From: a virus
Taxonomy: Duplodnaviria; Heunggongvirae; Uroviricota; Caudoviricetes; Peduoviridae
Direction: 5' to 3' (one strand)
Length of the DNA: 34,558 bases
Virus record (IMG/VR): IMGVR_UViG_2585427767_000007
Position 1 is the stretch's first letter; each line of letters starts with the position of its first letter. The translations under genes were made by a program, and so were the position numbers. Below the pieces are notes generated by a model. The model did not search any database. It was given only the letters and a program-made list of their open reading frames with translations, and had not been told where the DNA came from. Shown here piece after piece: positions 3,513 to 33,655 of this stretch.

Positions 3513-4516
3513 TTACTGATGCTCGTTGCCATACTGAAAATACCATCAATGTTATTTTTGTTTCAGGTGGAAAGGACAGCCTTGCTCAGTGGCTTGTCGC
3601 TATTGAAGAAAATGTACCCATATTGCCGGTTTTTGCTGATACGGGACATGAACATCCACAGACAATGAAATATCTGGATTATCTGGAAAAACGGCTTGGC
3701 CCAATTAAAAGGGTCAGGGCTGATTTTTCCTGCCGGATTGAATCAAAGCGCAAGTTTATCCAGACCAAATGGCCTGATTTGTTGGTTAACGATTGTGGAA
3801 TGTCGGAAGAAGAAGCGCACCAGCGCATCAGTTGTGCGCTGGAAATTCTCAAACCAACGGGTATCCCGTTTCTTGATTTGTGTCTGTGGAAGGGGCGTTT
3901 CCCATCAACCAAAGCCAGATTTTGCACATTTGAACTGAAACATGAACCCGTGCGTTCTCAGGTAATCCTGCCTTTACTCAATGAATTTGAGGAAGTGATT
4001 AGCTGGCAGGGAGTGCGTGCTCAGGAATCGCCATCACGCGCAGCTTTACCTGTCTGGGAAGAGGATGCAGACAACACCCCCGGATTGCATGTATATCGCC
4101 CGATTTTGCACTGGAAGCATGAAGATGTATTTGCAATAGCCAGAAGACATGACATTAAGCCAAATCCGTTATATCTGCAGGGGTGTGGCCGTGTTGGTTG
4201 TATGCCATGTATTCATGTCCGTAAATCTGAACTGGCAGAAATTTTTCGCCGGTGGCCGGAGGAAATAAAGCGGGTTGCTGAATGGGAACGACTGGTTGCG
4301 TCGTGCTCCCGTCGGGGAAATTCCACTTTTTTCCCATCCACACATGATCCGTTACGCGCAGAACGTCGTATTGAGGTTGTAACAGTCGAGGCATACGGAA
4401 TTGAAACCTACCATGACTGGACAATGACAACGCGTGGGGGTACTCAGTTTGATTTACTGGCTTCGGCGAATGATAAAGCCGTTTGCAGTAGTGTCTATGC
4501 CGGTGTATGTGAATGA
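3509..4516 (+). CDS. PAPS-reductase-like PP-loop protein (phosphoadenosine phosphosulfate reductase family)
   Basis: N-terminal VIFVSGGKDS PP-loop (SGGxDS) motif and C-terminal cysteine cluster (GCGRVGCMPC). Translationally coupled to the downstream gpA gene (ATGA overlap at 4513-4516). Confidence 0.75.
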   Translation: MITDARCHTENTINVIFVSGGKDSLAQWLVAIEENVPILPVFADTGHEHPQTMKYLDYLEKRLGPIKRVRADFSCRIESKRKFIQTKWPDLLVNDCGMSEEEAHQRISCALEILKPTGIPFLDLCLWKGRFPSTKARFCTFELKHEPVRSQVILPLLNEFEEVISWQGVRAQESPSRAALPVWEEDADNTPGLHVYRPILHWKHEDVFAIARRHDIKPNPLYLQGCGRVGCMPCIHVRKSELAEIFRRWPEEIKRVAEWERLVASCSRRGNSTFFPSTHDPLRAERRIEVVTVEAYGIETYHDWTMTTRGGTQFDLLASANDKAVCSSVYAGVCE

Positions 4517-6804
4517 GTCATTCTTTCCAGGAGCAATACACCTGCGTACCTCCGTCTGCGTTTGCCGCAGGCACCGGTAAGGCGTTTACCGGTGCTTATG
4601 CATGGAATACGCCACGCGAGGCTGTCGGGCGCGAAAGACCCCTTACACGTGACGAGATGCGTCAGGTGCAAGGTGTTTTATCCACGATTAACCGCCTGCC
4701 TTACTTTTTGCGCTCGCTGTTTACTTCACGTTATGACTACATACGGCGCAATAAAAGCCCGCTACACGGGTTTTATTTCCTCACATCCACTTTTCAGCGT
4801 CGTTTATGGCCGCGCATTGAGCGTGTGAATCAGCGCCATGAAATGAACACCGACGCGTCGTTACTGTTTCTGGCAGAGCGTGACCACTATGCGCGCCTGC
4901 CGGGAATGAATGACAAGGAGCTGAAAAAGTTTGCTGCCCGTATCTCATCGCAGCTTTTCATGATGTATGAGGAACTCAGCGATGCCTGGGTGGATGCGCA
5001 TGGCGAAAAAGAATCGCTGTTTACGGATGAGGCGCAGGCTCACCTCTATGGTCATGTTGCTGGCGCTGCACGTGCTTTCAATGTTTCCCCTCTCTACTGG
5101 AAAAAATACCGTAAAGGGCAGATGACCACGAGGCAGGCATATTCTGCCATTGCCCGTCTGTTTAACGATGAGTGGTGGATTAGTCAGCTTAAAGGCCAGC
5201 GTATGCGCTGGCATGAGGCGTTACTGATTGCTGTCGGGGAGGTCAATAAAGACCGTTCTCCTTATGCCAGTAAACATGCCATTCGTGATGTGCGTGCACG
5301 CCGCCAGGCAAATCTGGAGTTTCTTAAATCGTGTGACCTTGAAAACAGGGAAACCGGCGAGCGCATCGACCTTATCAGTAAGGTGATGGGCAGTATTTCT
5401 AATCCTGAAATTCGCCGGATGGAGCTGATGAACACCATTGCCGGTATTGAGCGTTACGCTGCAGCAGAGGGTGATGTGGGGATGTTTATCACGCTGACCG
5501 CGCCGTCAAAGTATCACCCGACACGTCAGGTCGGAAAAGGCGAAAGTAAAACCGTCCAGCTAAATCACGGCTGGAACGATGAGGCATTTAATCCAAAGGA
5601 TGCGCAGCGTTATCTCTGCCGTATCTGGAGCCTGATGCGCACGGCATTCAAGGATAATGATTTACAGGTCTACGGTTTGCGTGTCGTCGAGCCACACCAC
5701 GACGGAACGCCGCACTGGCATATGATGCTTTTTTGTAATCCGCGCCAGCGTAACCAGATTATTGAAATCATGCGTCGCTATGCGCTCAAAGAGGATGGCG
5801 ACGAAAGAGGAGCCGCGCGAAACCGTTTTCAGGCAAAACACCTTAACCGGGGCGGTGCTGCGGGGTATATCGCGAAATACATCTCAAAAAACATCGACGG
5901 CTATGCACTGGATGGTCAGCTCGATAACGATACCGGCAGACCTCTGAAAGATACTGCCGCGGCTGTTACTGCATGGGCGTCAACGTGGCGCATCCCGCAA
6001 TTTAAAACGGTTGGTCTGCCGACAATGGGGGCTTACCGTGAACTACGCAAATTGCCGCGCGGCGTCAGCATTGCTGATGAGTTTGACGAGCGCGTCGAGG
6101 CTGCACGCGCCGCCGCAGACAGTGGTGATTTTGCGTTGTATATCAGCGCGCAGGGTGGGGCAAATGTCCCGCGCGATTGTCAGACTGTCAGGGTTGCCCG
6201 TAGCCCGTCGGATGAAGTTAACGAGTACGAGGAAGAAGTCGAGAGAGTGGTCGGCATTTACGCGCCGCATCTCGGCGCGCGTCATATTCATATCACCAGA
6301 ACGACGGACTGGCGCATTGTTCCGAAAGTTCCGGTCGTTGAGCCTTTGACTTTAAAAAGCGGCATCGCCGCGCCTCGGAGTCCTGTCAATAACTGTGGAA
6401 AACTCACCGGTGGTGATACTTCGTTACCGGCTCCCACACCTTCAGAGCACGCCGCAGCAGTGCTTAATCTGGTTGATGACGGTGTTATCGAATGGAATGA
6501 CCAGGAGGTCGTGAAGGCGCTAAGGGGCGCATTAAAACACGGACTGAGAACACCAAATCGTCAGCAAAGAGCCGGAAGCCCGTTAAAACCGCATGAAATA
6601 GCGCCATCGGCCAGAATGACCCGGTCGGAACGAATGCAAATTACCCGTATCCGCGTTGACCTTGCTCAGAACGGTATCAGGCCGCAGCGATGGGTGCTTG
6701 AGGCGCTGGCGCGTGGCGCGACCGTAAATTATGACGGGAAAAAATTCACGTATCCGGTCGCTGATGAGTGGCCGGGATTCTCAACAGTAATGGAGTGGAA
6801 ATGA
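4513..6804 (+). CDS. A: Rolling-circle replication initiation endonuclease gpA
   Basis: 763-aa ORF. HUH motif (PHWHMMLF) and downstream tyrosine pair region (YIAKYISKNIDGY) characteristic of P2 gpA-type relaxase/initiators. Size close to remembered P2 gpA. Confidence 0.9.
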   Translation: MSHSFQEQYTCVPPSAFAAGTGKAFTGAYAWNTPREAVGRERPLTRDEMRQVQGVLSTINRLPYFLRSLFTSRYDYIRRNKSPLHGFYFLTSTFQRRLWPRIERVNQRHEMNTDASLLFLAERDHYARLPGMNDKELKKFAARISSQLFMMYEELSDAWVDAHGEKESLFTDEAQAHLYGHVAGAARAFNVSPLYWKKYRKGQMTTRQAYSAIARLFNDEWWISQLKGQRMRWHEALLIAVGEVNKDRSPYASKHAIRDVRARRQANLEFLKSCDLENRETGERIDLISKVMGSISNPEIRRMELMNTIAGIERYAAAEGDVGMFITLTAPSKYHPTRQVGKGESKTVQLNHGWNDEAFNPKDAQRYLCRIWSLMRTAFKDNDLQVYGLRVVEPHHDGTPHWHMMLFCNPRQRNQIIEIMRRYALKEDGDERGAARNRFQAKHLNRGGAAGYIAKYISKNIDGYALDGQLDNDTGRPLKDTAAAVTAWASTWRIPQFKTVGLPTMGAYRELRKLPRGVSIADEFDERVEAARAAADSGDFALYISAQGGANVPRDCQTVRVARSPSDEVNEYEEEVERVVGIYAPHLGARHIHITRTTDWRIVPKVPVVEPLTLKSGIAAPRSPVNNCGKLTGGDTSLPAPTPSEHAAAVLNLVDDGVIEWNDQEVVKALRGALKHGLRTPNRQQRAGSPLKPHEIAPSARMTRSERMQITRIRVDLAQNGIRPQRWVLEALARGATVNYDGKKFTYPVADEWPGFSTVMEWK

Positions 6805-7043: not shown

Positions 7044-7329
7044 AAATGTATGCGGTATGTATGGAAAACCGCACCATAACGAGAAAAATATCCAGTATGA
7101 ATCTGCTTAGATTAATAGATCGCAGAAGAGAGAAGAGGTATTGAGCCATGATGCCAATTTGTGAGATACCGAAGTGTTATGACAAAGATGCTTTTAATGT
7201 TACATTCCGTCATTACTCTTATTAATCATCTATTTCAATAGATTAGGATTAATCTGGCTATGTCATTGAAGATGCTCGATGTCTCGATATTTCTTAGCTA
7301 AAATAGGAGGCACTAAGGGAGAGGATGTT

Positions 7330-8388
7330 ATGTCTAAAATTTATGCTATTGACCTTTTTTGTGGTGCAGGTGGATTAACCCATGGTTTGATACAAGCAGG
7401 GATTGGTGTCATTGCTGGTATTGATTTAGATCCAGATTGCAGATGGGCGTATGAGCACAACAACAAAGCTAAATATATAAATTCAGATATTTGTGATGTA
7501 ACAGGTCAAGACCTTATGCGCTTGTGGCCAGAACAGGGAATAAGACTTCTTGCTGGTTGCGCCCCATGTCAGCCTTTTTCAAGTTATCGAAAAGGCAAGA
7601 TTGAATCTGCTGACGGCAAATGGAAACTCTTAGGTGAATTTGGACGGCTAGTCAAAGAATCTTCACCAGACTTGATAACCATGGAAAACGTACCAAGGTT
7701 ACAAAAGCATAAAATTTTCTTGGATTTTGTTAAAGACCTTAAGAAAGGTGGGTATAAGGTCTGGTATGGCGTCGTTGACTGTCAACAATATGGTGTGCCT
7801 CAGAAAAGGCAGCGATTAGTTTTACTGGCATCCAAGATCAGTGATGTTGTGTTGATTCCTCCAACACATTCAGAAGATAACTACGTAACAGTGAAAGATG
7901 CTATTTCTCATTTGCCAGAGATAGATTCAGGGCAAGCTGATGAGAAAGATCCATTACACGTTGCTCAGGGAATGAGCCAATTAAATCTCGAAAGGATTCG
8001 TCAATCAAAACCAGGTGGAACATGGAAGGATTGGGATCCTGAGTTGGTTGCTGCGTGCCATAAGAAAAGTAGTGGCAAAACTTACACAAGTGTATATGGA
8101 CGGATGAGATGGGATGAACCAGCTCCTACAATGACAACCCTATGTTTTGGTTTTGGTAATGGACGTTTTGGGCATCCTCAACAGGATAGGGCCATTTCTT
8201 TACGTGAGGCAGCTATCTTTCAAAGTTTTCCGGAGAACTATGTTTTTTCTGAACCAGGTGCAAAGATCACATTTGCAACAGTTGGTCGCTTGATTGGTAA
8301 TGCCGTTCCGGTAAAACTAGGTGAAGTTGTAGGAAAATCATTTATTAATAGTCTATCTGGGGGTAGTAGGAGAAATGGCGGAGCATAG
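7330..8388 (+). CDS. DNA (cytosine-5)-methyltransferase, Dcm-type
   Basis: Canonical C5-MTase motifs in canonical order: motif I FCGAGG (IDLFCGAGGLTHGL), motif IV PCQPFS (catalytic Cys), motif VI ENV, motif VIII QKRQR, motif X GNAV. ATG 7330 with GGGAGAGG Shine-Dalgarno; the track start at 7279 is a longer upstream extension. Lower GC than the phage backbone. Confidence 0.9.
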   Translation: MSKIYAIDLFCGAGGLTHGLIQAGIGVIAGIDLDPDCRWAYEHNNKAKYINSDICDVTGQDLMRLWPEQGIRLLAGCAPCQPFSSYRKGKIESADGKWKLLGEFGRLVKESSPDLITMENVPRLQKHKIFLDFVKDLKKGGYKVWYGVVDCQQYGVPQKRQRLVLLASKISDVVLIPPTHSEDNYVTVKDAISHLPEIDSGQADEKDPLHVAQGMSQLNLERIRQSKPGGTWKDWDPELVAACHKKSSGKTYTSVYGRMRWDEPAPTMTTLCFGFGNGRFGHPQQDRAISLREAAIFQSFPENYVFSEPGAKITFATVGRLIGNAVPVKLGEVVGKSFINSLSGGSRRNGGA

Positions 8389-10372
8389 CGAAGTTTTATC
8401 GCATGTTGATGAAAAAACACATACTTATGAGATGCTGGTTAGCTTGAGTGTTCTGGGGCATCTGGGGATCAATCTATATAGCAATGTTGCGGCAGTGATT
8501 ACGGAAACAGTAGCTAATGCATGGGATGCAGATGCTACAGAAGTGCATATAAAACTTTCTCCTGACAGAATCACTATTTCGGATAATGGTTTTGGAATGA
8601 CCATTCATGATATGAATTCGAAATATCTAACAGTTGGCTATCAAAAAAGAAATGATAAAAGCCAGCTATTAACTCCCAAGGGACGACTACCCATGGGCAG
8701 AAAAGGTATTGGTAAGTTATCTTTATTTTCTATTGCAAAAACTGTAACGGTTGAATCAATCAAGGATGGAGAACGACATGGTTTAGTTATGGAAGTTCCA
8801 AAAATAGAGCATGCAATCAAAAGTGGGGCTGGTAGATATTATCCAGAACCTTTGGATTCTGCTCAACTTTCTGTGAGTCAAGGAACATTAGTAACATTGC
8901 GTGATCTAAATCGATCTCGCATACCTGCCACTGCAACCGCTTTGCGTAAAAAGTTAGCAAGGCGTTTTTCTGTTATTGGTAGTAATGATTTTAGGGTCTT
9001 CGTTGATGGTGTAGAAGTAACAGCAAAGGAACGTGAGGACCTAAAACATGTTCAGTTCGTATGGGATATTAACTCGGGGGTAGATTTTAAAAAAGAATGT
9101 CCGGGGTTAATAACTGTAACTGACATTTCATCATTTTTGACAGAAAGTCAATTATTTAATCCTGAATGGAGCATTAAAGGGTGGATTGGTAGTATAAAAC
9201 AGCCTAGTCAGTTGAATACACCTGAAGGAAATCTAAATAGCATTGTTGTTTTATCTAGAGGTCGATTGTTTCAAGAGAACATTTTAGATGATATAAACGA
9301 TGGTGGGATATACACAAAGTATCTTACAGGGCAACTTGAGGCAGACTTCCTTGATACAGATGAAGATGAAGATATTGCAACAAGTGATAGACAACGAGTT
9401 GTTGAAGATGACCCTCGTTATCAATATTTGAAATCATTGGTTAAGATTGCCCTGAGAAAGGTTGCTGGTCAATGGAGCTCACTACGAGAAAAGCAAGGAG
9501 CAAAGGAAGCTAAAGAATCGAATCCGGTACTTGCGGAGTGGATCGGTTCATTAAAACCTGCTTCCCGAGGCTATGCAGAAAAAATGATCGCTCAAATTGA
9601 ATCGTTGCCTTTGGAGGATAAACCACAAGAGAAGAAGGAACTCTTTAAGCATGCAATTTTTGCATTTGAGCGCTTGCGTATTAAGGAAATGTCGCAGGAG
9701 CTAGCTGATGCTGTATTTTTTAATGCAGAAAAATTATTGCCATTGCTTGAGAAACAAGACGATTTAGAGGCAACATTATATTATGAGATAGCTAAGAGTC
9801 GTGTAGATGTTATTCAAAGCTTCAAAGGCCTAGTCGATAACGATGAAAAAGAAAAAGTATTGCAACGTTATCTTTTTGAACACCTTTGGTTATTAGACCC
9901 ATCATGGGAAAGAATTGATGGTTCTCCAATAATGGAGTCGCGTGTTAACCAAGAGTGGGACAAGATTGATGCTGGCCTGAGTGAAGAAGAGAAGAAAGGT
10001 CGTATGGATATAAAATATCGCTCATCTGCAGGTAAGCATATTATCATTGAACTTAAGAGAGCTAGCGTATTGACTTCTGTTGCAAATCTAGTCAGTCAGG
10101 GGAATAAGTACAGGCAGGCAGTAATTAAGTGTGCAAAAGCTGTTGACCCGGCCTCAACACCATCAATTGATGTGATTTTTGTCCTTGGTCGAGAGCCATC
10201 AGATTATGCGTTAGACCCATCTTATACTAACCTTCAGCTACAGTCAGTGAATGGTCGGATTGTTTATTATGATGGGCTAATTAATAGCGCACAGAGCTCG
10301 TATAGAGAATATACAGAGAGGCAGGCTACTGTTGCAAGGATTGCTGAAATCGTTAAAAAACTAGATGACTAG
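8375..10372 (+). CDS. GHKL/HATPase_c-type ATPase (665 aa) with C-terminal PD-(D/E)xK-like nuclease motif; candidate restriction/defence effector
   Basis: Bergerat-fold motifs near the N-terminus: N-box ETVANAWDA (ExxxNAxDA), G1 box DNGFGM, G2 box GRKGIGKLS. C-terminal region has D...ExK pattern (GRMDIKY...HIIIELKR). ATG 8375 overlaps the MTase stop by 14 nt with AGGAG upstream. Low GC. Confidence 0.8.
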   Translation: MAEHSEVLSHVDEKTHTYEMLVSLSVLGHLGINLYSNVAAVITETVANAWDADATEVHIKLSPDRITISDNGFGMTIHDMNSKYLTVGYQKRNDKSQLLTPKGRLPMGRKGIGKLSLFSIAKTVTVESIKDGERHGLVMEVPKIEHAIKSGAGRYYPEPLDSAQLSVSQGTLVTLRDLNRSRIPATATALRKKLARRFSVIGSNDFRVFVDGVEVTAKEREDLKHVQFVWDINSGVDFKKECPGLITVTDISSFLTESQLFNPEWSIKGWIGSIKQPSQLNTPEGNLNSIVVLSRGRLFQENILDDINDGGIYTKYLTGQLEADFLDTDEDEDIATSDRQRVVEDDPRYQYLKSLVKIALRKVAGQWSSLREKQGAKEAKESNPVLAEWIGSLKPASRGYAEKMIAQIESLPLEDKPQEKKELFKHAIFAFERLRIKEMSQELADAVFFNAEKLLPLLEKQDDLEATLYYEIAKSRVDVIQSFKGLVDNDEKEKVLQRYLFEHLWLLDPSWERIDGSPIMESRVNQEWDKIDAGLSEEEKKGRMDIKYRSSAGKHIIIELKRASVLTSVANLVSQGNKYRQAVIKCAKAVDPASTPSIDVIFVLGREPSDYALDPSYTNLQLQSVNGRIVYYDGLINSAQSSYREYTERQATVARIAEIVKKLDD

Positions 10373-10532: not shown

Positions 10533-10674
10533 TGCGCGCTGGCGGGGGTGCTGATTTTATTTTTTCAGCGTCTGAGCGCGTCGTGAAGGCGTTTACTTGG
10601 CCTGCTGGGGCGTTGGTGTGTCTGCGGGATTTTTTGTGCGGTGATGAGCGTGTGAGGGCGTGATGACGGGGTGT

Positions 10675-10701: not shown

Positions 10702-11736
10702 TCAGCCGTTGTCAGTGTCCAGTGAGTAGTTTTTAAAGCGGATGACCTCCTGACCGAGCCAGCCGTTTATTTCCCGAATCCTGTCCTGTAGCGGGATAAG
10801 TTCATTGCGGACAAAGACCTTTGCCACTTTCTCAATATCACCCAGAGACCCGACGTTCTCCGGCTTGCCGCCCATCAACTGAAAGGGGATGCGGTGTGCG
10901 TCCAGCAGGTCAGCGGCGCTGGCTTTTTTGATATTAAAAAAATCGTCCTTCGTCGCCACTTCACTGAGCGGGATAATTTTAATGCCGTCGGCTTTCCCCT
11001 GTGGGGCATAGAGAAACAGGTTTTTAAAGTTATTGCGGCCTTTCGACTTCACCATGTTTTCGCGAAGCATTTCGATATCGTTGCGGTCCTGCACGGCATC
11101 GGTGACGTACATGATGTATCCGGCATGCGCGCCGTTTTCGTAATACTTGCGGCGGAACAGCGTGGCCGACTCATTCAGCCAGGCAGAGTTAAGGGCGCTG
11201 AGATATTCCGGCAGGCCGTACAGCTCCTGATTAATATCCGGCTCCAGCAGGTGAAACACGGAACCGGGCGCGAAAGGTGTCGGCTCGTTGAAGGACGGCA
11301 CCCACCAGTAAACATCCTCCTCCACGCCACGGCGGGGATATTTTGCCGGGGAGGTTTCCAGTCTGATGATCTTACCGGTGGTGCTGTAACGCTTTTCCAG
11401 AAACGCATTACCGAACACCAGAAAATCCAGCACAAAGCGGCTGAAATCCTGTTGCGAAAGCCACGGATGCGGGATAAATGTCGAGGCCAGAATATTGCGT
11501 TTAACGTAAATCGGTGAGCTGTGATGCACGGCAGCACGCAGGCTTTTCGCCAGACCGGTAAAGCTGACCGGCGGCTCATACCATCTGCCGTTACTGATGC
11601 ACTCGACGTAATCCAGAATGTCACGGCGGTCGAGTACCGGCACCGGCTCACCAAAGGTGAATGCCTCCATTTTCGGGGCGCTGGCGGTCATTTTTTTTGC
11701 CGCAGGTTGCGGTGTTTTCCCTTTTTTCTTGCTCAT
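10702..11736 (-). CDS. Q: Portal protein gpQ
   Basis: 344-aa minus-strand ORF at the canonical position next to cos; matches remembered P2 gpQ size. Start ATG overlaps the terminase stop by 1 nt. Confidence 0.9.
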   Translation of the reverse strand: MSKKKGKTPQPAAKKMTASAPKMEAFTFGEPVPVLDRRDILDYVECISNGRWYEPPVSFTGLAKSLRAAVHHSSPIYVKRNILASTFIPHPWLSQQDFSRFVLDFLVFGNAFLEKRYSTTGKIIRLETSPAKYPRRGVEEDVYWWVPSFNEPTPFAPGSVFHLLEPDINQELYGLPEYLSALNSAWLNESATLFRRKYYENGAHAGYIMYVTDAVQDRNDIEMLRENMVKSKGRNNFKNLFLYAPQGKADGIKIIPLSEVATKDDFFNIKKASAADLLDAHRIPFQLMGGKPENVGSLGDIEKVAKVFVRNELIPLQDRIREINGWLGQEVIRFKNYSLDTDNG

Positions 11737-14594: not shown

Positions 14595-15668
14595 ATGCGC
14601 CAGGAAACCCGCTTTAAATTTAATGCCTATCTGTCCCGTGTTGCCGAACTGAACGGCATCGACGCCGGTGATGTGTCGAAAAAATTCACCGTTGAACCGT
14701 CGGTCACCCAGACCCTGATGAACACCATGCAGGAGTCCTCTGATTTTCTGACCCGCATCAACATTGTGCCGGTCAGCGAAATGAAAGGGGAAAAAATTGG
14801 TATTGGTGTCACCGGCTCCATCGCCAGCACCACCGACACCGCCGGTGGCACCGAGCGTCAGCCGAAGGACTTCTCGAAGCTGGCGTCAAACAAGTACGAA
14901 TGCGACCAGATTAACTTCGATTTTTATATCCGCTACAAAACGCTGGACCTGTGGGCGCGTTATCAGGATTTCCAGCTCCGTGTCCGTAACGCCATTATCA
15001 AGCGTCAGTCCCTTGATTTCATCATGGCCGGTTTTAACGGCGTGAAGCGTGCCGAAAACTCTGACCGCAGCAGTAATCCGATGCTGCAGGATGTGGCGGT
15101 CGGCTGGCTGCAGAAATACCGCAATGAAGCCCCGGCGCGCGTGATGAGCAAGGTCACTGACGAGGAAGGTCACACGACCTCTGAGGTCATCCGCGTGGGT
15201 AAGGGCGGTGATTATGCCAGCCTTGATGCACTGGTGATGGATGCGACCAACAACCTGATTGAACCGTGGTATCAGGAAGACCCTGACCTTGTGGTGATTG
15301 TGGGGCGTCAGCTACTGGCGGACAAGTATTTCCCCATCGTTAACAAGGAGCAGGACAACAGCGAAATGCTGGCCGCTGACGTCATCATCAGCCAGAAACG
15401 CATCGGTAACCTGCCGGCGGTACGCGTCCCGTACTTCCCGGCGGATGCGATGCTCATCACGAAGCTGGAAAACCTGTCCATCTACTACATGGATGACAGC
15501 CATCGCCGCGTGATTGTGGAAAACCCGAAACTCGACCGCGTGGAGAACTACGAGTCAATGAACATTGATTACGTGGTGGAAGACTACGCCGCCGGTTGTC
15601 TGGTGGAAAAAATTAAGGTCGGTGATTTCTCCACACCGGCTAAGGCGACCGCAGAGCCGGGAGCGTAA
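14595..15668 (+). CDS. N: Major capsid protein gpN
   Basis: 357-aa ORF directly after O; size and position match P2 gpN. Confidence 0.9.
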   Translation: MRQETRFKFNAYLSRVAELNGIDAGDVSKKFTVEPSVTQTLMNTMQESSDFLTRINIVPVSEMKGEKIGIGVTGSIASTTDTAGGTERQPKDFSKLASNKYECDQINFDFYIRYKTLDLWARYQDFQLRVRNAIIKRQSLDFIMAGFNGVKRAENSDRSSNPMLQDVAVGWLQKYRNEAPARVMSKVTDEEGHTTSEVIRVGKGGDYASLDALVMDATNNLIEPWYQEDPDLVVIVGRQLLADKYFPIVNKEQDNSEMLAADVIISQKRIGNLPAVRVPYFPADAMLITKLENLSIYYMDDSHRRVIVENPKLDRVENYESMNIDYVVEDYAAGCLVEKIKVGDFSTPAKATAEPGA

Positions 15669-17512: not shown

Positions 17513-18009
17513 TGCCGGTAATTAACACGCATCAGAATATCGCGGCCTTTCTCGACATGCTGGCCGTGTCCGAAGGGACGGCGAATCATCCGCTGACGAA
17601 AAACCGGGGCTATGACGTGATAGTCACCGGACTGGACGGGAAGCCGGAAATTTTCACCGACTACAGTGACCACCCGTTCGCGCATGGCCGACCGGCGAAG
17701 GTGTTTAACCGTCGCGGTGAAAAATCCACGGCCTCCGGTCGCTATCAGCAGCTTTACCTGTTCTGGCCGCATTACCGCAAACAGCTTGCCCTGCCGGATT
17801 TCAGTCCGTTGTCACAGGACAGACTTGCCATTCAGTTGATCCGCGAACGCGGTGCACTGGATGACGTCCGGGCGGGACGTATTGAGCGCGCCATTTCACG
17901 CTGTCGCAATATCTGGGCGTCCCTGCCGGGTGCCGGTTACGGTCAGCGTGAGCATTCACTGGAAAAACTGGTCACCGTCTGGCGTACCGCTGGCGGCGTA
18001 CCGGCTTAA
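17512..18009 (+). CDS. K: Endolysin gpK (lysozyme-like)
   Basis: 165 aa, start overlapping the holin stop; size and position match P2 gpK. Confidence 0.85.
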   Translation: MPVINTHQNIAAFLDMLAVSEGTANHPLTKNRGYDVIVTGLDGKPEIFTDYSDHPFAHGRPAKVFNRRGEKSTASGRYQQLYLFWPHYRKQLALPDFSPLSQDRLAIQLIRERGALDDVRAGRIERAISRCRNIWASLPGAGYGQREHSLEKLVTVWRTAGGVPA

Positions 18010-22380: not shown

Positions 22381-25140
22381 ATGAGCACGAAATTTAAAAC
22401 CGTTATCACTACTGCCGGAGCCGCAAAGCTGGCAGCCGCCACTGTCCCCGGCGGGAAAAAAGTAAACCTGTCTGCAATGGCCGTGGGTGACGGTAATGGC
22501 AAATTGCCGGTGCCGGATGCCGGTCAGACGAAACTGGTGCATGAGGTCTGGCGTCACGCTCTGAATAAAGTCAGCGTGGATAACAAGAATAAAAACTATA
22601 TCGTGGCTGAACTGGTTGTACCGCCCGAAGTGGGCGGCTTCTGGATGCGTGAGCTTGGTCTGTATGACGATGCCGGAACACTGATTGCGGTATCCAACAT
22701 GGCAGAAAGCTATAAGCCAGAACTGGCTGAAGGCTCCGGACGTGCGCAGACCTGCCGCATGGTTATTATTCTCAGCAACGTGGCGTCCGTTGAGCTGAGT
22801 ATTGATGCCAGCACGGTGATGGCGACGCAGGATTACGTCGATGACAAAATCGCAGAGCATGAGCAGTCCCGCCGCCATCCTGACGCCACGCTGACAGAAA
22901 AAGGTTTTACTCAGTTAAGCAGTGCAACAAACAGCACCAGTGAAAAGCTGGCGGCAACGCCAAAAGCGGTCAAGGCAGCAAATGACAACGCAAATTCACG
23001 TCTGGCGAAAAATCAGAACGGTGCAGATATCCAGGATAAATCAGCTTTTCTGGACAATGTTGGCGTTACCAGCCTGACGTTTATGAAAAACAATGGCGAA
23101 ATGCCGCTTGATGCTGATCTGAATACATTTGGTCCCGTTAAGGCTTATCTGGGGATCTGGTCTAAAGCTACCTCAACTAACGCAACACTGGAGAAAAATT
23201 TCCCGGAAGATAATGCTGTCGGTGTGCTTGAGGTTTTTGCTGCCGGCAATTTTGCAGGTACGCAACGCTTTACCACAAGAGACGGCAATGTATACATGCG
23301 TAAACTCGCCAATAAGTGGAATGGCACTGATGGTCCGTGGGGCGTATGGCGTCACACTCAATCAGCTACCCGCCCTTTGAGTACGACTATAGACCTGAAT
23401 ACGCTTGGAGCCGCCGAACATCTTGGTTTATGGCGTAACAGTAGCTCGGCTATAGCTTCATATGAACGCAATTATCCAGAGGAAGGCGGCTTTGCTCAGG
23501 GGACGCTTGAGATCCTTGAAGGCGGGAATTATGGAAGAACGCAACGTTATACCACTCGCCGTGGAAATATGTATGTCCGCTGCCTTGCGGCAAGCTGGGA
23601 TGCATCAAATCCGCAGTGGGAACCGTGGTTAAGAGTCGGTCATCAGTCAGAGAGTCGTTATTACGAAGGTGATTTGAATGATGTAACCTCACCAGGTATT
23701 TACAGCGTTACAGGTAAAGCGACCAACGGTCCAGTACTGGACGGAAACGGCGTGACTGTACTCGGCATTCTGGAAGTGTTGAGGCGGTTTGATGGTGTTA
23801 ATGTATGGCAGCGTTATACAACTGCCGGAACAGGTACAACCCTTAAAGGCCGCACCTTTGAGCGCGTCTTTACCGGCAGCTCATGGAGCGAATGGCGGGA
23901 AGTCTACACCTCGTATTCACTTCCCCTGAATCTGGGTATCGGCGGTGCTGTGGCAAAGCTCACCAGCCTGGACTGGCAGACCTACGATTTTGTGCCGGGC
24001 AGTCTGATAACCGTTAGGCTGGATAATATGACCAATATTCCCGACGGTATGGACTGGGGCGTCATTGATGGCAACCTGATAAACATCGCAGTTGGTCCGA
24101 GTGATGATTCCGGTACGGGGCGCTCAATGCATGTATGGCGCAGCACTGTAAGTAAAGCGAACTACCGATTTTTTATGGTGCGTATTTCAGGAAATCCGGG
24201 AAGCCGCACGATCACAGCAAGACGAGTACCAATCATTGACGAAGCCCAGACATGGGGCGCGAAACAGACATTCAGTGCTGGCCTTTCTGGTGAACTGTCC
24301 GGCAATGCGGCGACAGCAACAAAGCTGAAAACAGCCCGTAAAATTAATAACGTTTCGTTTGATGGAACATCAGATATTAACCTGACGCCGAAAAATATTG
24401 GTGCATTTGCTTCAGGAAAAACAGGAGACACCGTTGCGAATGATAAAGCCGTTGGGTGGAACTGGAGTAGCGGAGCCTATAACGCAACTACTGGTGGGGC
24501 ATCAACGTTAATTCTTCATTTTAATATCGGTGAAGGAAGTTGTCCCGCCGCCCAGTTCCGCGTTAATTATAAGAACGGCGGTATTTTTTATCGTTCTGCT
24601 CGTGACGGTTACGGATTCGAGGCTGACTGGTCTGAGTTTTATACCACAACGCGAAAACCTACAGCGGGAGATGTCGGTGCACTGCCGTTATCTGGTGGTC
24701 AATTGAATGGTGCTCTGGGTATAGGAACATCCAGTGCTCTTGGCGGTAATTCGATTGTTTTGGGTGATAATGACACGGGCTTTAAACAAAATGGTGATGG
24801 TAATCTGGATGTTTATGCTAATAGCGTCCATATTATGCGCTTTGTCTCGGGAAGTATTCAAAGTAATAAAACCATAAATATTACGGGGCGTGTTAATCCC
24901 TCGGATTACGGTAACTTTGATTCCCGCTATGTCCGGGATATCCGGCTTGGTGGTGCTGCCACATACAAACCTGCGAACAATGGCATGACATGGACACATC
25001 AGGCACCGTCCGGGTGTGTATATTCCGGCATTATTGTTCAGGATACCGGCTCAAACTCTGCCGATAACATTGGTGGTGTATATTACAGGCCGGTTCAGAA
25101 ATACATTAACGGGACATGGTATAACGTGGCGCAGGTATAA
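22381..25140 (+). CDS. H: Tail fibre protein gpH, extended 919-aa variant
   Basis: Position after I. Considerably longer than the roughly 669 aa I remember for P2 gpH. Contains three related internal repeats beginning GVLEVF.../GTLEILEG.../GILEVLRR..., each carrying a QR(F/Y)TT core. Confidence 0.85.
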   Translation: MSTKFKTVITTAGAAKLAAATVPGGKKVNLSAMAVGDGNGKLPVPDAGQTKLVHEVWRHALNKVSVDNKNKNYIVAELVVPPEVGGFWMRELGLYDDAGTLIAVSNMAESYKPELAEGSGRAQTCRMVIILSNVASVELSIDASTVMATQDYVDDKIAEHEQSRRHPDATLTEKGFTQLSSATNSTSEKLAATPKAVKAANDNANSRLAKNQNGADIQDKSAFLDNVGVTSLTFMKNNGEMPLDADLNTFGPVKAYLGIWSKATSTNATLEKNFPEDNAVGVLEVFAAGNFAGTQRFTTRDGNVYMRKLANKWNGTDGPWGVWRHTQSATRPLSTTIDLNTLGAAEHLGLWRNSSSAIASYERNYPEEGGFAQGTLEILEGGNYGRTQRYTTRRGNMYVRCLAASWDASNPQWEPWLRVGHQSESRYYEGDLNDVTSPGIYSVTGKATNGPVLDGNGVTVLGILEVLRRFDGVNVWQRYTTAGTGTTLKGRTFERVFTGSSWSEWREVYTSYSLPLNLGIGGAVAKLTSLDWQTYDFVPGSLITVRLDNMTNIPDGMDWGVIDGNLINIAVGPSDDSGTGRSMHVWRSTVSKANYRFFMVRISGNPGSRTITARRVPIIDEAQTWGAKQTFSAGLSGELSGNAATATKLKTARKINNVSFDGTSDINLTPKNIGAFASGKTGDTVANDKAVGWNWSSGAYNATTGGASTLILHFNIGEGSCPAAQFRVNYKNGGIFYRSARDGYGFEADWSEFYTTTRKPTAGDVGALPLSGGQLNGALGIGTSSALGGNSIVLGDNDTGFKQNGDGNLDVYANSVHIMRFVSGSIQSNKTINITGRVNPSDYGNFDSRYVRDIRLGGAATYKPANNGMTWTHQAPSGCVYSGIIVQDTGSNSADNIGGVYYRPVQKYINGTWYNVAQV

Positions 25141-25143
25141 TTT

Positions 25144-25671
25144 ATGCAGCATTTAAAAAATATTACGGCGGGGAATCCAAAAACGGTTGAACAATATCAA
25201 TTGACAAAGGGTTTTGATGTTGTCTGGTTTTTTTCAGAAGATGGTAAGAACTGGTACGAAGAACAAAAGTATTTTGCTGATGACACGATAAAAATAGCGT
25301 ACGACAAAGATAATATTATCCGCTATGTGGAAAAGGATGTGACAGCTATCAGACCGGATGGATTAAGTGTTGTTGAAGTGGCGGATATTACTGCTAACCG
25401 ACGGGCGGACATTTCAGGGGGCTGGATGTTTAAGGACGGCAAAGTGATTAAACGCATTTATACGGCAGAGGAATTGCTGCAGCAGGCAGAAAACCGGAAA
25501 GCCAGACTTCTTGCAGATGCTGAATCCGTGATTTTGCCGCTGGAGCGCGCGGTCAGACTGAACATGGCAACAGATGAGGAGCGTAGCCGACTGGATGCAT
25601 GGGAGCGTTACAGCGTTCTGGTCAGTCGTGTGGATCCTGCAAATCCTGAATGGCCGGAAATGCCGCAATAA
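25144..25671 (+). CDS. G: Tail fibre assembly chaperone gpG
   Basis: 175 aa immediately after H; matches P2 gpG size. Confidence 0.8.
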
Positions 25672-25892: not shown

Positions 25893-26486
25893 ATGTTTAC
25901 TAAGCGACGATTAAAAAATATTAACTGGGAGGCAAGTTCAGTGATTCTTGCTATGGTTCTCTTTGTTGGAAATATATTTTATACAAATCATCGTGATGAT
26001 ATAAGCATGGAGGCTGAGAGGGACAGTATCAGAACAATGTTTGCATATGAAATCGCTAATAACCATCGCGCTCTCACTTTTCTTGATAAAACGAGACATA
26101 TTGGCTTTGACGAAAATTCGGAGCATTTTGTTGGCGAGCCTTTTGCCATTAATGTCAAATCATTAGGGGGGCCTCGCTTACAGATTGCATTAAACCAGAC
26201 TGATAAAGTGTTTAAATCCTACTTCAGCGAATTAAGTAAGCTTGGTAAAGAGGATGTTACTCTTCTTATGGACTATTACCATGAGCAAAGCATCCTGCTG
26301 GAGCGTGTAAAATCTACGTTACAGAAGATGAAAAGTGGTAATGATATTAAAGTTGATATTGATGGTTACTTATTAGAAGAACACTTCATGAATGAGCTTA
26401 ATCTTTCTAATATTTTGCTTAAACGCTATAGCCATTTGTTGTCACAATACGCTAAAGAACATAAAACAAAAGATTTACATAATTGA
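25893..26486 (+). CDS. AT-rich moron at the P2 Z/fun locus: 197-aa hypothetical protein with N-terminal membrane anchor
   Basis: ATG 25893 with AAGG upstream. Single hydrophobic segment SSVILAMVLFVGNIF near the N-terminus. Markedly lower GC than the flanking tail genes; followed by a strong terminator. Confidence 0.65.
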   Translation: MFTKRRLKNINWEASSVILAMVLFVGNIFYTNHRDDISMEAERDSIRTMFAYEIANNHRALTFLDKTRHIGFDENSEHFVGEPFAINVKSLGGPRLQIALNQTDKVFKSYFSELSKLGKEDVTLLMDYYHEQSILLERVKSTLQKMKSGNDIKVDIDGYLLEEHFMNELNLSNILLKRYSHLLSQYAKEHKTKDLHN

Positions 26487-26695
26487 TAATCTGCTAATGG
26501 TTATTCATGGGGTAACTATGTTTTATATGTAATCCAACTCAGATGAATTATTGATTCTGGATAATAACCGCAGAGCGGCATATACCCTGACAGGCAAATG
26601 TCCGCTTCTTGTTCAAAGCAGACTGTCAGATTTGATAACTTTTGGGCTATGTAAATTGTCAGTCGGAAAATGAGTGAGTTCAAATCAGGACAGGC

Positions 26696-26734
26696 GGGGG
26701 GAATTGCCCCCCCTTTTTTTTTTTTTTTTTTTTT
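26696..26734 (+). terminator. Intrinsic terminator: G6-loop-C7 hairpin followed by a T21 homopolymer
   Basis: GGGGGG-AATTG-CCCCCCC (26696-26713) followed by 21 consecutive T (26714-26734), downstream of the moron ORF and about 80 nt upstream of FI. Confidence 0.6.
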
Positions 26735-26816
26735 CCCCTGACCAGCCAGGTCAAATAGCGTCTCATGCTCTGCACAACAGAAAATAGTTGCACCCATTAA
26801 CCACGGAGTTAAACGG

Positions 26817-28007
26817 ATGAGTGACTATCATCACGGCGTGCAGGTGCTGGAGATTAACGACGGCACCCGCGTCATTTCCACCGTATCCACGGCCATTGTC
26901 GGCATGGTCTGCACGGCCAGCGATGCGGATGCGGAAACCTTCCCCCTCAATAAACCGGTGCTGATTACCAATGTGCAGAGCGCAATTGCAAAGGCCGGTA
27001 AAACAGGCACGCTGGCGGCATCGTTGCAGGCCATCGCTGACCAGTCAAAACCGGTCACCGTTGTCGTGCGTGTGGAAGACGGCACCGGCGAAGACGAAGA
27101 AACGAAGCTCGCGCAGACCGTTTCCAATATCATCGGCACCACCGACGAAAACGGTCAGTACACCGGACTGAAAGCCCTGCTGGCGGCGGAGTCGGTAACC
27201 GGTGTTAAACCGCGTATTCTCGGCGTGCCGGGACTGGATACCAAAGAGGTGGCTGTTGCACTGGCATCTGTCTGTCAGAAGTTGCGCGCTTTCGGGTATA
27301 TCAGCGCATGGGGCTGTAAAACCATTTCCGAGGTGAAAGCCTACCGCCAGAATTTCAGCCAGCGTGAGCTGATGGTCATCTGGCCGGATTTCCTCGCATG
27401 GGATACGGTCACCAGTACCACCGCCACCGCGTATGCCACCGCCCGTGCACTGGGGCTGCGTGCCAAAATCGACCAGGAGCAGGGCTGGCATAAAACGCTG
27501 TCCAATGTCGGGGTGAACGGTGTTACCGGCATCAGCGCCTCTGTATTCTGGGATTTGCAGGAGTCCGGCACTGATGCTGACCTGCTGAACGAGGCAGGCG
27601 TCACAACGCTGGTTCGCCGCGACGGTTTCCGTTTCTGGGGTAACCGTACCTGCTCCGATGACCCACTTTTCCTCTTTGAAAACTACACCCGCACCGCGCA
27701 GGTGCTGGCCGACACGATGGCTGAGGCGCACATGTGGGCGGTGGACAAGCCCATCACCGCAACGCTGATTCGCGACATCGTTGACGGCATCAATGCCAAA
27801 TTCCGTGAGCTGAAAACAAACGGCTATATCGTGGATGCGACCTGCTGGTTCAGCGAAGAATCCAACGATGCGGAAACCCTCAAGGCCGGAAAACTGTATA
27901 TCGACTACGACTATACACCGGTGCCTCCTCTCGAAAACCTGACCCTGCGCCAGCGTATTACCGATAAATACCTGGCAAATCTGGTCACCTCGGTTAACAG
28001 CAATTAA
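26817..28007 (+). CDS. FI: Tail sheath protein gpFI
   Basis: 396 aa; size and position match P2 gpFI. Confidence 0.9.
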   Translation: MSDYHHGVQVLEINDGTRVISTVSTAIVGMVCTASDADAETFPLNKPVLITNVQSAIAKAGKTGTLAASLQAIADQSKPVTVVVRVEDGTGEDEETKLAQTVSNIIGTTDENGQYTGLKALLAAESVTGVKPRILGVPGLDTKEVAVALASVCQKLRAFGYISAWGCKTISEVKAYRQNFSQRELMVIWPDFLAWDTVTSTTATAYATARALGLRAKIDQEQGWHKTLSNVGVNGVTGISASVFWDLQESGTDADLLNEAGVTTLVRRDGFRFWGNRTCSDDPLFLFENYTRTAQVLADTMAEAHMWAVDKPITATLIRDIVDGINAKFRELKTNGYIVDATCWFSEESNDAETLKAGKLYIDYDYTPVPPLENLTLRQRITDKYLANLVTSVNSN

Positions 28008-33200: not shown

Positions 33201-33419
33201 ATGTTTCATTGTCCTTTATGCCAGCATGCCGCACATGCGCGTACAAGCCGCTATATCACTGACACGACAAAAGAGCGTTATCATCAGTGCCAGAACGTGA
33301 ATTGCAGTGCCACGTTCATCACTTATGAGTCGGTACAGCGATACATCGTGAAGCCGGGAGAAGTCCACGCCGTAAGGCCGCACCCGTTGCCGTCAGGGCA
33401 GCAAATTATGTGGATGTGA
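33201..33419 (+). CDS. ogr: Late-gene transcriptional activator Ogr (zinc-finger)
   Basis: ATG 33201 (MFHCPLCQHAAHAR...) gives 72 aa with CxxC...CxxxxC zinc-binding cysteines (CPLC...CQNVNC); matches remembered P2 Ogr. The track ORF from 33138 begins at a TTG. Confidence 0.85.
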   Translation: MFHCPLCQHAAHARTSRYITDTTKERYHQCQNVNCSATFITYESVQRYIVKPGEVHAVRPHPLPSGQQIMWM

Positions 33420-33456: not shown

Positions 33457-33612
33457 TGGTCGATGTGGACGCTATGTGGACAGTGGTTGATATAAATCCA
33501 TTTATATCATCAGGTTAGGTGCTTTTTTGTGACACCATCCCTGTCTTCCCCCACATGATGTGGGGTTTTTTTTTATCCTCAATTTGCTTGCTGCTTAATG
33601 CATTGCAGATGA
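33457..33612. other. Putative attR region (phage arm plus core), boundaries not resolved
   Basis: Between ogr and host fieF. Contains direct repeat ATGTGGAC x2 (33462-33469, 33473-33480), palindrome GATATAAAT-cca-ATTTATATC (33489-33509), and hairpin CCCCACAT-gatg-TGGGG followed by T9 (about 33549-33575). attL is not in the window, so the core cannot be confirmed. Confidence 0.4.
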
Positions 33613-33655
33613 TTTGCTTCCGTTATACTACCGTCAGTTGATAGCGGGAGTATTT

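What the first reader, a model, noticed from the sequence alone, without database searches (positions are those of the whole stretch)
26696..26734. Unusually long T21 homopolymer following a G6/C7 hairpin just upstream of the tail sheath gene
GGGGGG-AATTG-CCCCCCC followed by 21 consecutive T. As a terminator it would insulate the moron from the FI late operon. Homopolymer tracts of this length are prone to slipped-strand length variation, which could modulate termination efficiency or spacing of the downstream late promoter. It may also be an assembly or sequencing problem region.
Basis: seen in the sequence. Interest (0 to 1): 0.5.

Follow-up and report, generated by a model that had tools for sequence, protein, structure and literature searches.

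The report
Sequencing artefact over a phage terminator
The 21-T run is really in the window, but it is almost certainly a base-calling error frozen into a draft E. coli assembly: it overwrites an ordinary, conserved P2-phage terminator and part of the tail-gene late promoter, so it is not a biological feature.

Summary
The letters are exactly as described: G6 at 26696-26701, AATTG, C7 at 26707-26713, and T21 at 26714-26734.

The window is a complete P2-like prophage. It matches draft assembly GCA_000714265.1 exactly over the 20.7 kb I could fetch.

All 75 related copies I read carry GGCGGGC-GAATT-GCCCGCC-TTTTCTTTATCTGTTGTTTCATCCA at this site. Their longest T run is 4. None of 830 complete E. 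coli genomes comes closer than 12 differences, and three large public collections hold no exact match.

The window differs from its nearest relative at 35 positions in 34.5 kb, and 12 of them fall in these 39 bases. Each of the 12 turns a base into a copy of its 5' neighbour. They start right after a GGC motif and an inverted repeat. This is the published signature of Illumina sequence-specific dephasing errors.

A simple lag model applied to the normal sequence reproduces G6, C7, T21 and C4, with one edit left. Four more "GGT to GGG" changes in the same assembly are absent from independent re-assemblies of the matching read sets.

The real element is a normal intrinsic terminator next to the Ogr-dependent pF promoter. 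Taken literally, the T run would erase the left half of that promoter's activator site.

Verdict: artefact, low interest. I could not inspect the reads over the tract itself.

The parts
26693..26713 (+). Terminator hairpin as written in the window (GGC-GGGGGG-AATTG-CCCCCCC). This is a distorted copy of the conserved GGCGGGC-GAATT-GCCCGCC stem-loop.
   Evidence: The canonical form folds at -20.1 kcal/mol (z -4.6); the window form at -15.5 (z -1.4).
26714..26734 (+). The T21 run. It stands where relatives have TTTTCTTTATCTGTTGTTTCA, and every non-T base is replaced by T.
   Evidence: In 75 of 75 relatives the longest T run at this site is 4.
26699..26737 (+). The 39-base stretch holding 12 of the 35 differences between the window and its nearest relative. 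Each one copies the 5' neighbouring base.
26724..26750 (+). Equivalent of the P2 pF activator (Ogr) binding site, mapped by alignment to NC_001895 17555-17583. Its left half (TGTTGT in relatives) reads TTTTTT in the window.
   Evidence: P2 annotation, P2 sequence and alignment A1.
26791..26793 (+). Predicted pF transcription start (CAC), mapped by homology to P2 17626-17628. The T21 run would span about -78 to -58 relative to it.
   Evidence: This is an inference from homology.
26817..28007 (+). FI tail sheath gene, the first gene of the F late operon.
   Evidence: Phage_sheath_1, Phage_sheath_1C, Gp18_domIII_N.
25893..26486 (+). AT-rich cargo ORF (197 aa) at the G-FI variable site, the same position as fun(Z) in P2. 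Its function is unknown.
   Evidence: phrog_3829, unknown function, E 2.5e-136. No Pfam or PADLOC hit. GC falls to about 0.32.
26597..26695 (+). Conserved backbone stretch just upstream of the terminator. It is shared with P2 and fiAA91-ss, which carry different cargo.
33201..33419 (+). ogr, the late-gene activator that acts at pF.
   Evidence: Pfam Ogr_Delta, E 1.1e-21.

Best explanation
The G6/C7/T21 block is a consensus error in the deposited draft assembly, not a property of the phage.

The true sequence is almost certainly the canonical GGCGGGC-GAATT-GCCCGCC-TTTTCTTTATCTGTTGTTTCATCCA. This is a conserved intrinsic terminator that ends transcription coming from the V-W-J-I-H-G operon and the cargo ORF. 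It is followed immediately by the Ogr-binding dyad of the pF late promoter.

Reads running in the + direction hit a GGC motif and a strong G+C inverted repeat. Sequencing-by-synthesis then fell out of phase (lagging-strand dephasing). For about 40 cycles each call was dominated by signal from preceding bases, so mixed sequence collapsed into blocks of G, C, T and C. The assembler kept these calls.

Shown: the tract is private to this assembly, the differences are clustered, each one copies its 5' neighbour, and the trigger motif is present. The same assembly also carries other errors of this kind that independent re-assemblies do not support.

Inferred: the sequencing platform, the mechanism, and that the reads over the tract itself would show the canonical sequence.
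For: 1. Source. Window 5672-26415 is 100.000% identical to GCA_000714265.1 contig JOQV01000010.1. The window's portal protein variant occurs on only 2 contigs, named E. coli 5-366-08_S3_C3.

2. Private allele. All 75 fetched relatives have at most T4 at the site. All 57 viral or phage copies agree at the 10 substituted positions, apart from 3 that carry CCCC. The best full-length match among 830 complete E. coli genomes is 92.6%, which is 12 differences. The allele has 0 exact hits in genome contigs, viral contigs and metagenome contigs.

3. Clustering. 12 of 35 differences from E. coli MZ1211 fall in 39 of 34,558 bases. About 0.03 would be expected there.

4. Direction. All 12 equal the preceding base, and length is conserved to +1.

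5. Model. A lag-mixture model (weights 0.7^j, lags 0-5) run on the canonical sequence gives G6, AA, TT, C7, T21 and C4. Its edit distance to the window is 1, against 12 for the canonical sequence and 7 for the best opposite-direction model.

6. Same assembly, other sites. Window G against T at 10546, 11337, 11350 and 25173, each after GGC/GCC plus G's. Logan re-assemblies of SRR1186464 and SRR1186617 and an ENA metagenome scaffold share the lineage-specific SNPs 16199A and 16211C. They differ from the window only at these G sites over 20.7 kb and 14 kb for the two Logan contigs.

7. Literature. Illumina sequence-specific errors start after GGC motifs and inverted repeats 'likely associated with gene terminators'. 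[quoted passage not shown]

8. Function. Read literally, the allele weakens the hairpin and erases the left half of the pF activator site of an otherwise intact prophage.
Against: - I could not read the raw reads, nor the stretch of the Logan contig that covers 26696-26734. The fetch limit stopped at 26415, and the ORFs over the tract are not on record. The artefact verdict for the tract itself is therefore indirect.
- That SRR1186464 and SRR1186617 are the read sets behind the deposited assemblies is inferred from shared rare SNPs, not from metadata.
- A consensus normally averages both read directions, so an error this long needs weak reverse-strand support or a permissive pipeline.
- The lag model has two fitted parameters, and its start and end were set with the window in view.
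- One of the 12 changes (A to C at 26737) also occurs naturally in 3 viral contigs.
Confidence: 0.88

Rival explanations
1. The tract is real in this isolate. A cluster of mutations turned the terminator tail and the left half of the pF activator site into a hypermutable T21 tract. This would either make tail-gene expression phase-variable or cripple the prophage's tail production.
For: The sequence is in a deposited assembly. The site is structurally eventful in other genomes, with IS200 inserted right after the terminator T tract in two of them. Prophages do decay.
Against: It needs 11 substitutions and 1 insertion in 39 bases on a background of 23 differences in 34.5 kb. All of them copy the 5' neighbour and length is preserved, which slippage would not do. 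There are no intermediates or length variants in 75 relatives or 830 genomes. The same assembly has four same-type changes that re-assemblies contradict.
Confidence: 0.06
2. It is a recombination patch. A short stretch was replaced by gene conversion from a divergent P2-like phage that naturally carries a homopolymer-rich version of this terminator and promoter.
For: P2-like phages are mosaic, and this site borders a cargo hotspot.
Against: No donor allele exists in any collection searched. Divergent relatives such as P2 and fiAA91-ss differ by ordinary substitutions, not homopolymer blocks. The flanks are identical to the nearest relative right up to the patch.
Confidence: 0.02
3. It is an artefact of another kind, such as an assembler consensus, gap-filling or polishing error, or another platform's error mode, rather than Illumina lagging-strand dephasing specifically.
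For: I have no metadata on platform or pipeline. The extra G (+1 length) is not produced by the simple lag model. Logan re-assemblies, apparently of the same reads, do not carry the four GGT-to-GGG errors, so the deposited pipeline contributed.
Against: The trigger context (GGC plus inverted repeat), the ~40-base span, and 12 of 12 changes copying the preceding base match the published error profile closely. Flow-based platforms mainly make homopolymer length errors, not substitutions (my own knowledge).
Confidence: 0.04

Closest known systems
Illumina sequence-specific error (lagging-strand dephasing after GGC motifs and inverted repeats; Nakamura et al. 2011, PMC3141275)
   Same: A GGC motif and a terminator-type inverted repeat lie immediately upstream. 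The miscalls run through about 40 bases. Every changed base equals the preceding base. The same assembly shows isolated GGT-to-GGG changes elsewhere.
   Different: Here the errors reached the consensus and form an unusually long block. One extra base is present. Strand specificity in the reads could not be checked.
Bacteriophage P2 pF late promoter with its Ogr activator-binding site (NC_001895 17555-17583, start 17626-17628)
   Same: The position upstream of FI is the same, the -10 and leader region is conserved, and the right half of the dyad is intact. ogr is present in the window.
   Different: As written, the window has TTTTTT where relatives have TGTTGT in the left half of the site. Relatives of this lineage also differ from P2 itself in the dyad spacer.
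Rho-independent terminator between the P2 V and F late operons
   Same: A G+C stem-loop followed by a T-rich tail, downstream of co-oriented genes. In its canonical form it is conserved in hundreds of P2-like prophages.
   Different: The P2 reference annotates its V-operon terminator elsewhere (15639-15666, next to fun(Z)), and its copy of this hairpin is weaker (-11.3 kcal/mol). The window's G6/C7 version is a distorted copy.
Phase-variable homopolymer tracts (contingency loci)
   Same: A long mononucleotide run inside a promoter region.
   Different: There is no length variation among relatives because there is no tract in any of them.

Membership tests
Illumina sequence-specific error (SSE) | Trigger: a GGC motif and/or an inverted repeat immediately upstream of the first miscall | tested here: met
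   GGC is at 26693-26695. The first change is at 26699, inside a 7-8 bp G+C inverted repeat.
Illumina sequence-specific error (SSE) | [quoted passage not shown] | tested here: met
   12 of 12 differences do so. The four isolated sites 10546, 11337, 11350 and 25173 are T to G after G's.
Illumina sequence-specific error (SSE) | Consecutive miscalls confined to about 40 bases downstream of the trigger | tested here: met
   The differences span 26699-26737, which is 39 bases. The flanks are identical to the nearest relative.
Illumina sequence-specific error (SSE) | Not supported by independent treatment of the same reads | tested here: inconclusive
   Met for four other sites in the same assembly, where the Logan re-assemblies carry T. 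The tract itself lies 281 bases beyond what could be fetched.
Illumina sequence-specific error (SSE) | Errors and low quality confined to one read direction | not testable with these tools
   No read-level data are available. The forward lag model fits far better than the reverse one (edit distance 1 against 7), which is only indirect.
Phase-variable homopolymer tract (contingency locus) | Tract present, with length differing among close relatives or within a population | tested here: not met
   In 75 of 75 relatives the longest T run at the site is 4. The best of 830 genomes is 12 differences away. There are 0 exact hits in three collections.
Rho-independent terminator | G+C-rich stem-loop immediately followed by a T-rich tail, downstream of a co-oriented gene | tested here: met
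   Scan and folds. The G gene and the 197-aa ORF are both on the + strand upstream. The canonical form is the better terminator.
Rho-independent terminator | Transcripts actually end there | not testable with these tools
   No transcript data are available.
P2 Ogr-dependent late promoter pF | Activator-binding dyad about 55-58 bases upstream of the start site | tested here: not met
   In the window as written, the left half reads TTTTTT. It is met in all relatives (TGTTGT-N12-CCAGCC, aligned to the P2 annotated site). The failure is attributed to the artefact.
P2 Ogr-dependent late promoter pF | Cognate activator gene present | tested here: met
   ogr is at 33201-33419, Pfam Ogr_Delta, E 1.1e-21.

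The most novel reading that the evidence does not exclude
The T21 tract is real in isolate 5-366-08_S3_C3. A hypermutable homopolymer has replaced the tail of the inter-operon terminator and the left half of the Ogr operator of pF. Tail sheath and tube expression of a P2-like prophage would then be switched on or off by tract length, or lost, leaving a tail-less prophage that keeps its cargo genes.
Probability: 0.05. Interest if true: 0.5.

Novelty: not a real feature. Interest (0 to 1): 0.06.

Why it matters
As biology it does not matter. The underlying element is the ordinary, already annotated junction between the V and F late operons of P2-like phages.

It matters as a caution. Draft assemblies can carry long, tidy-looking homopolymer blocks at terminators that mimic regulatory or phase-variable tracts. 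The same assembly also carries isolated GGT-to-GGG errors, one of which changes the portal protein (T134P) and has propagated into protein databases as its own accession.

A useful screen for any genome scan: check whether clustered private differences all copy the 5' neighbouring base downstream of a GGC motif or hairpin.

Tried and rejected
- Rfam over the whole window at gathering thresholds: no match.
- Strict TGT-N12-ACA search for late promoters: only 2 irrelevant matches, fewer than the 8.7 expected by chance. The late promoters of this lineage do not fit the strict consensus, so I relied on homology to the annotated P2 site instead.
- Fetching the tract from the source or sibling assemblies or from the Logan contig, all without success:
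  - The three ORFs overlapping the tract (93 aa and two of 37 aa) are not on record.
  - The M-gene look-up stops at 26415.
  - G, the cargo ORF and H are too common, so only the longest contigs are read; all of those are canonical.
  - The 40-aa ORF at 33519-33641 is on 12 contigs. This shows that 33566T and 33588T are natural variants, but it returned other prophages.
- Identity of the cargo ORF: only PHROG 3829 of unknown function. Nothing in Pfam or PADLOC, and an insignificant NCBIfam hit.
- Older primary papers on pF and Ogr or Delta binding are not held. The strain name is not in the paper library. The two P2 hotspot papers do not discuss the G-FI site.
- Quasi-palindrome correction was rejected. 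The canonical hairpin is already a perfect palindrome and the window version is a worse one.
- Simple slippage expansion was rejected. Length is conserved to +1, and the G and C runs changed as well.

Full report
**Observation.** The window reads GGGGGG (26696-26701), AATTG, CCCCCCC (26707-26713) and then 21 T (26714-26734), followed by CCCC. The next longest homopolymer in the window is T9. From the base composition, a T21 would be expected about 3e-9 times by chance (my arithmetic). The consensus scan flags the site as terminator-like.

**Context.** The window is a complete P2-like (Peduovirus) prophage running from the integrase gene to ogr, inserted between cpxP and fieF. It is 99.90% identical over its full length to the prophage of E. 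coli MZ1211.
- Upstream of the site are the tail fibre gene H (22381-25140) and the tail fibre assembly gene G (25144-25671; Caudo_TAP).
- Next comes an AT-rich 197-aa cargo ORF (25893-26486) of unknown function (PHROG 3829; no Pfam or PADLOC hit).
- Downstream is the sheath gene FI (26817-28007).
- In phage P2 the same gap holds fun(Z) on the other strand. Other relatives hold other cargo.
- Similarity to those phages resumes at about 26597, roughly 100 bases before the hairpin. The hairpin therefore belongs to the conserved backbone, not to the cargo.

**What relatives have at this place.** The nearest genome (MZ1211), isolated phages (P24B2, PhiR44_1, fiAA91-ss) and an unnamed P2 record all read GGCGGGC-GAATT-GCCCGCC-TTTTCTTTATCTGTTGTTTCATCCA-CTGACC.
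- A pattern that left all ten substituted positions free found 53 viral contigs. Together with the fetched phages, 54 copies were canonical and 3 differed only by CCCC for CCAC.
- Across all 75 fetched loci that contain the site, the longest T run is 4.
- Among 830 complete E. coli genomes holding this region, the best full-length identity to the window is 92.6%, which equals the same 12 differences. Two records fall in the 95-99% band. They rank below the full-length matches, so they must be partial alignments; I did not inspect them.
- The exact G6-AATTG-C7-T12 string has no match in the species-representative genomes, IMG/VR or the JGI metagenomes.

**Pattern of the differences.** The window and MZ1211 differ at 35 positions, and 12 of them lie within 26699-26737.
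- With one inserted G allowed, every one of the 12 turns a base into a copy of the base before it on the + strand: C to G after G, G to C after C, T to C after C, C/A/G to T after T, and A to C after C. Length is conserved to +1.
- Five of the other differences are G in the window against T in relatives, directly after GGC/GCC plus G's (2704, 10546, 11337, 11350, 25173). Each is private to the window among the relatives that cover it, including 0 of 68 at 25173.
- No complete E. coli genome carries the three G's at 10546, 11337 and 11350 together.

**Source and independent re-assemblies.** The window's portal protein, which carries T134P from the change at 11337, exists in the 15-billion-protein collection on only two contigs, named E. 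coli 5-366-08_S3_C3.
- The small terminase variant F176L (16199A) is on six contigs. One is NCBI draft contig JOQV01000010.1 of GCA_000714265.1, which is 100.000% identical to window 5672-26415.
- Two others are Logan re-assemblies of SRA runs SRR1186464 and SRR1186617. These share the lineage SNPs and differ from the window only at 10546, 11337, 11350 and 25173, where they carry T like every other relative.
- A further one is an ENA metagenome scaffold, which also carries T at the three of these sites it covers.
- The deposited assembly therefore contains consensus errors of the 'repeat the previous base' kind. That the SRA runs belong to these isolates is my inference from the shared rare SNPs.

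**Mechanism.** Nakamura et al. 2011 (PMC3141275) describe Illumina sequence-specific errors with these properties:
- They start after GGC motifs and after inverted repeats 'likely associated with gene terminators'.
- They produce consecutive miscalls through the following ~40 bases.
[quoted passage not shown] All the sequence-level features are met here: GGC at 26693-26695, an 8-bp G+C hairpin, a 39-base span, and 12 of 12 changes copying the preceding base.

A minimal model calls each position as the weighted majority of itself and the five preceding bases, with weights 0.7^j. Applied to the canonical sequence from the GGC motif to the end of the altered stretch, it yields runs G6, AA, TT, C7, T21 and C4. 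That is one edit from the window, against 12 edits for the unmodified canonical sequence and 7 for the best model run in the opposite direction. The two parameters were fitted and the boundaries were chosen with the window in view, so this shows sufficiency, not proof.

**What is really there.** In canonical form the hairpin is a strong intrinsic terminator (-20.1 kcal/mol, no shuffle as stable) followed by TTTTCTTT. It is placed to stop transcription arriving from the V operon and the cargo ORF.

The P2 reference annotates the pF activator-binding site at 17555-17583, the start site at 17626-17628 and the FI ATG at 17652. By alignment these map to window 26724-26750, 26791-26793 and 26817. 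The last 11 T of the tract thus cover the left half of the Ogr site (TGTTGT in relatives). The tract as a whole would span about -78 to -58. P2 late promoters depend on Ogr and a partially symmetrical upstream element (PMC3931495), and ogr is present in the window.

Read literally, the window would have a weaker hairpin (-15.5 kcal/mol, z -1.4) and a half-deleted activator site in front of the tail genes of an otherwise intact prophage. This is a further reason to distrust the tract. That loss of the half-site would abolish activation rests on my recollection of older deletion and mutation studies, which I could not retrieve.

**Limits.** I could not see raw reads or the part of the Logan contig covering the tract. 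Fetches are limited to 10 kb from a gene with a rare product, and nearby products are too common. The verdict for the tract itself rests on four things: the allele is private, the differences are clustered, each one copies its 5' neighbour, and the same kind of error is demonstrated elsewhere in the same assembly.

**Verdict.** The biological interpretation is not supported, apart from the presence of an ordinary conserved terminator. Novelty: not a real feature. Interest is low.

Noticed in passing
window 10546, 11337, 11350, 25173 (probably also 2704): Isolated T-to-G consensus errors after GGC/GCC plus G's in the source assembly. They are absent from Logan re-assemblies and from all relatives. 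The one at 11337 makes a portal T134P variant that now has its own accessions (KEL73324.1, KEL91033.1, WP_033868615.1).
   Followed up: yes
L067 about 4075-4790 (GCA_027273585.1) and L097 (GCA_027274045.1); equivalent to window about 26720: An IS200-type element (Y1_Tnp, 152 aa) is inserted immediately after the terminator's T tract. It sits between the terminator and the Ogr site of pF, separating them by about 0.7 kb.
   Followed up: partly
window 26597-26695: A stretch of about 100 bases just upstream of the terminator is conserved in P2, fiAA91-ss and this lineage regardless of the cargo next to it. It contains an imperfect inverted repeat (CTGTCAGATTTGATA.. / ..TGTAAATTGTCAG) and the tail of a short ORF ending at 26673. 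There is no Rfam match and its function is unknown.
   Followed up: partly
L084 about 8400-9600 (GCA_000713035.1, JORG01000123.1): A related prophage at the same chromosomal site appears to jump from the first codons of FI straight into the C-terminal part of gene D. This is either a deletion of the tail genes or an assembly collapse.
   Followed up: no
window 7279-10372: The gpA-gpQ cargo hotspot of this prophage carries a DNA cytosine methyltransferase and a BbrUII/HgiDII-family restriction enzyme, going by the annotation of the near-identical MZ1211 prophage. A truncated DUF3850 gene lies next to them.
   Followed up: no
window 33550-33574: Hairpin CCCCACATGATGTGGGG followed by T9, just past ogr at the prophage-chromosome junction. 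The T at 33566 (G in MZ1211) is a natural variant shared by 12 contigs of other genomes. The Logan contig of SRR1186464 ends at about this point.
   Followed up: partly
window 25893-26486: The 197-aa cargo ORF has a hydrophobic N-terminal stretch. PGAP labels it 'lysogenic conversion protein' in some genomes and 'hypothetical protein' in others. It occurs with the full flanking region in about 200 complete E. coli genomes and 13 phage records.
   Followed up: partly
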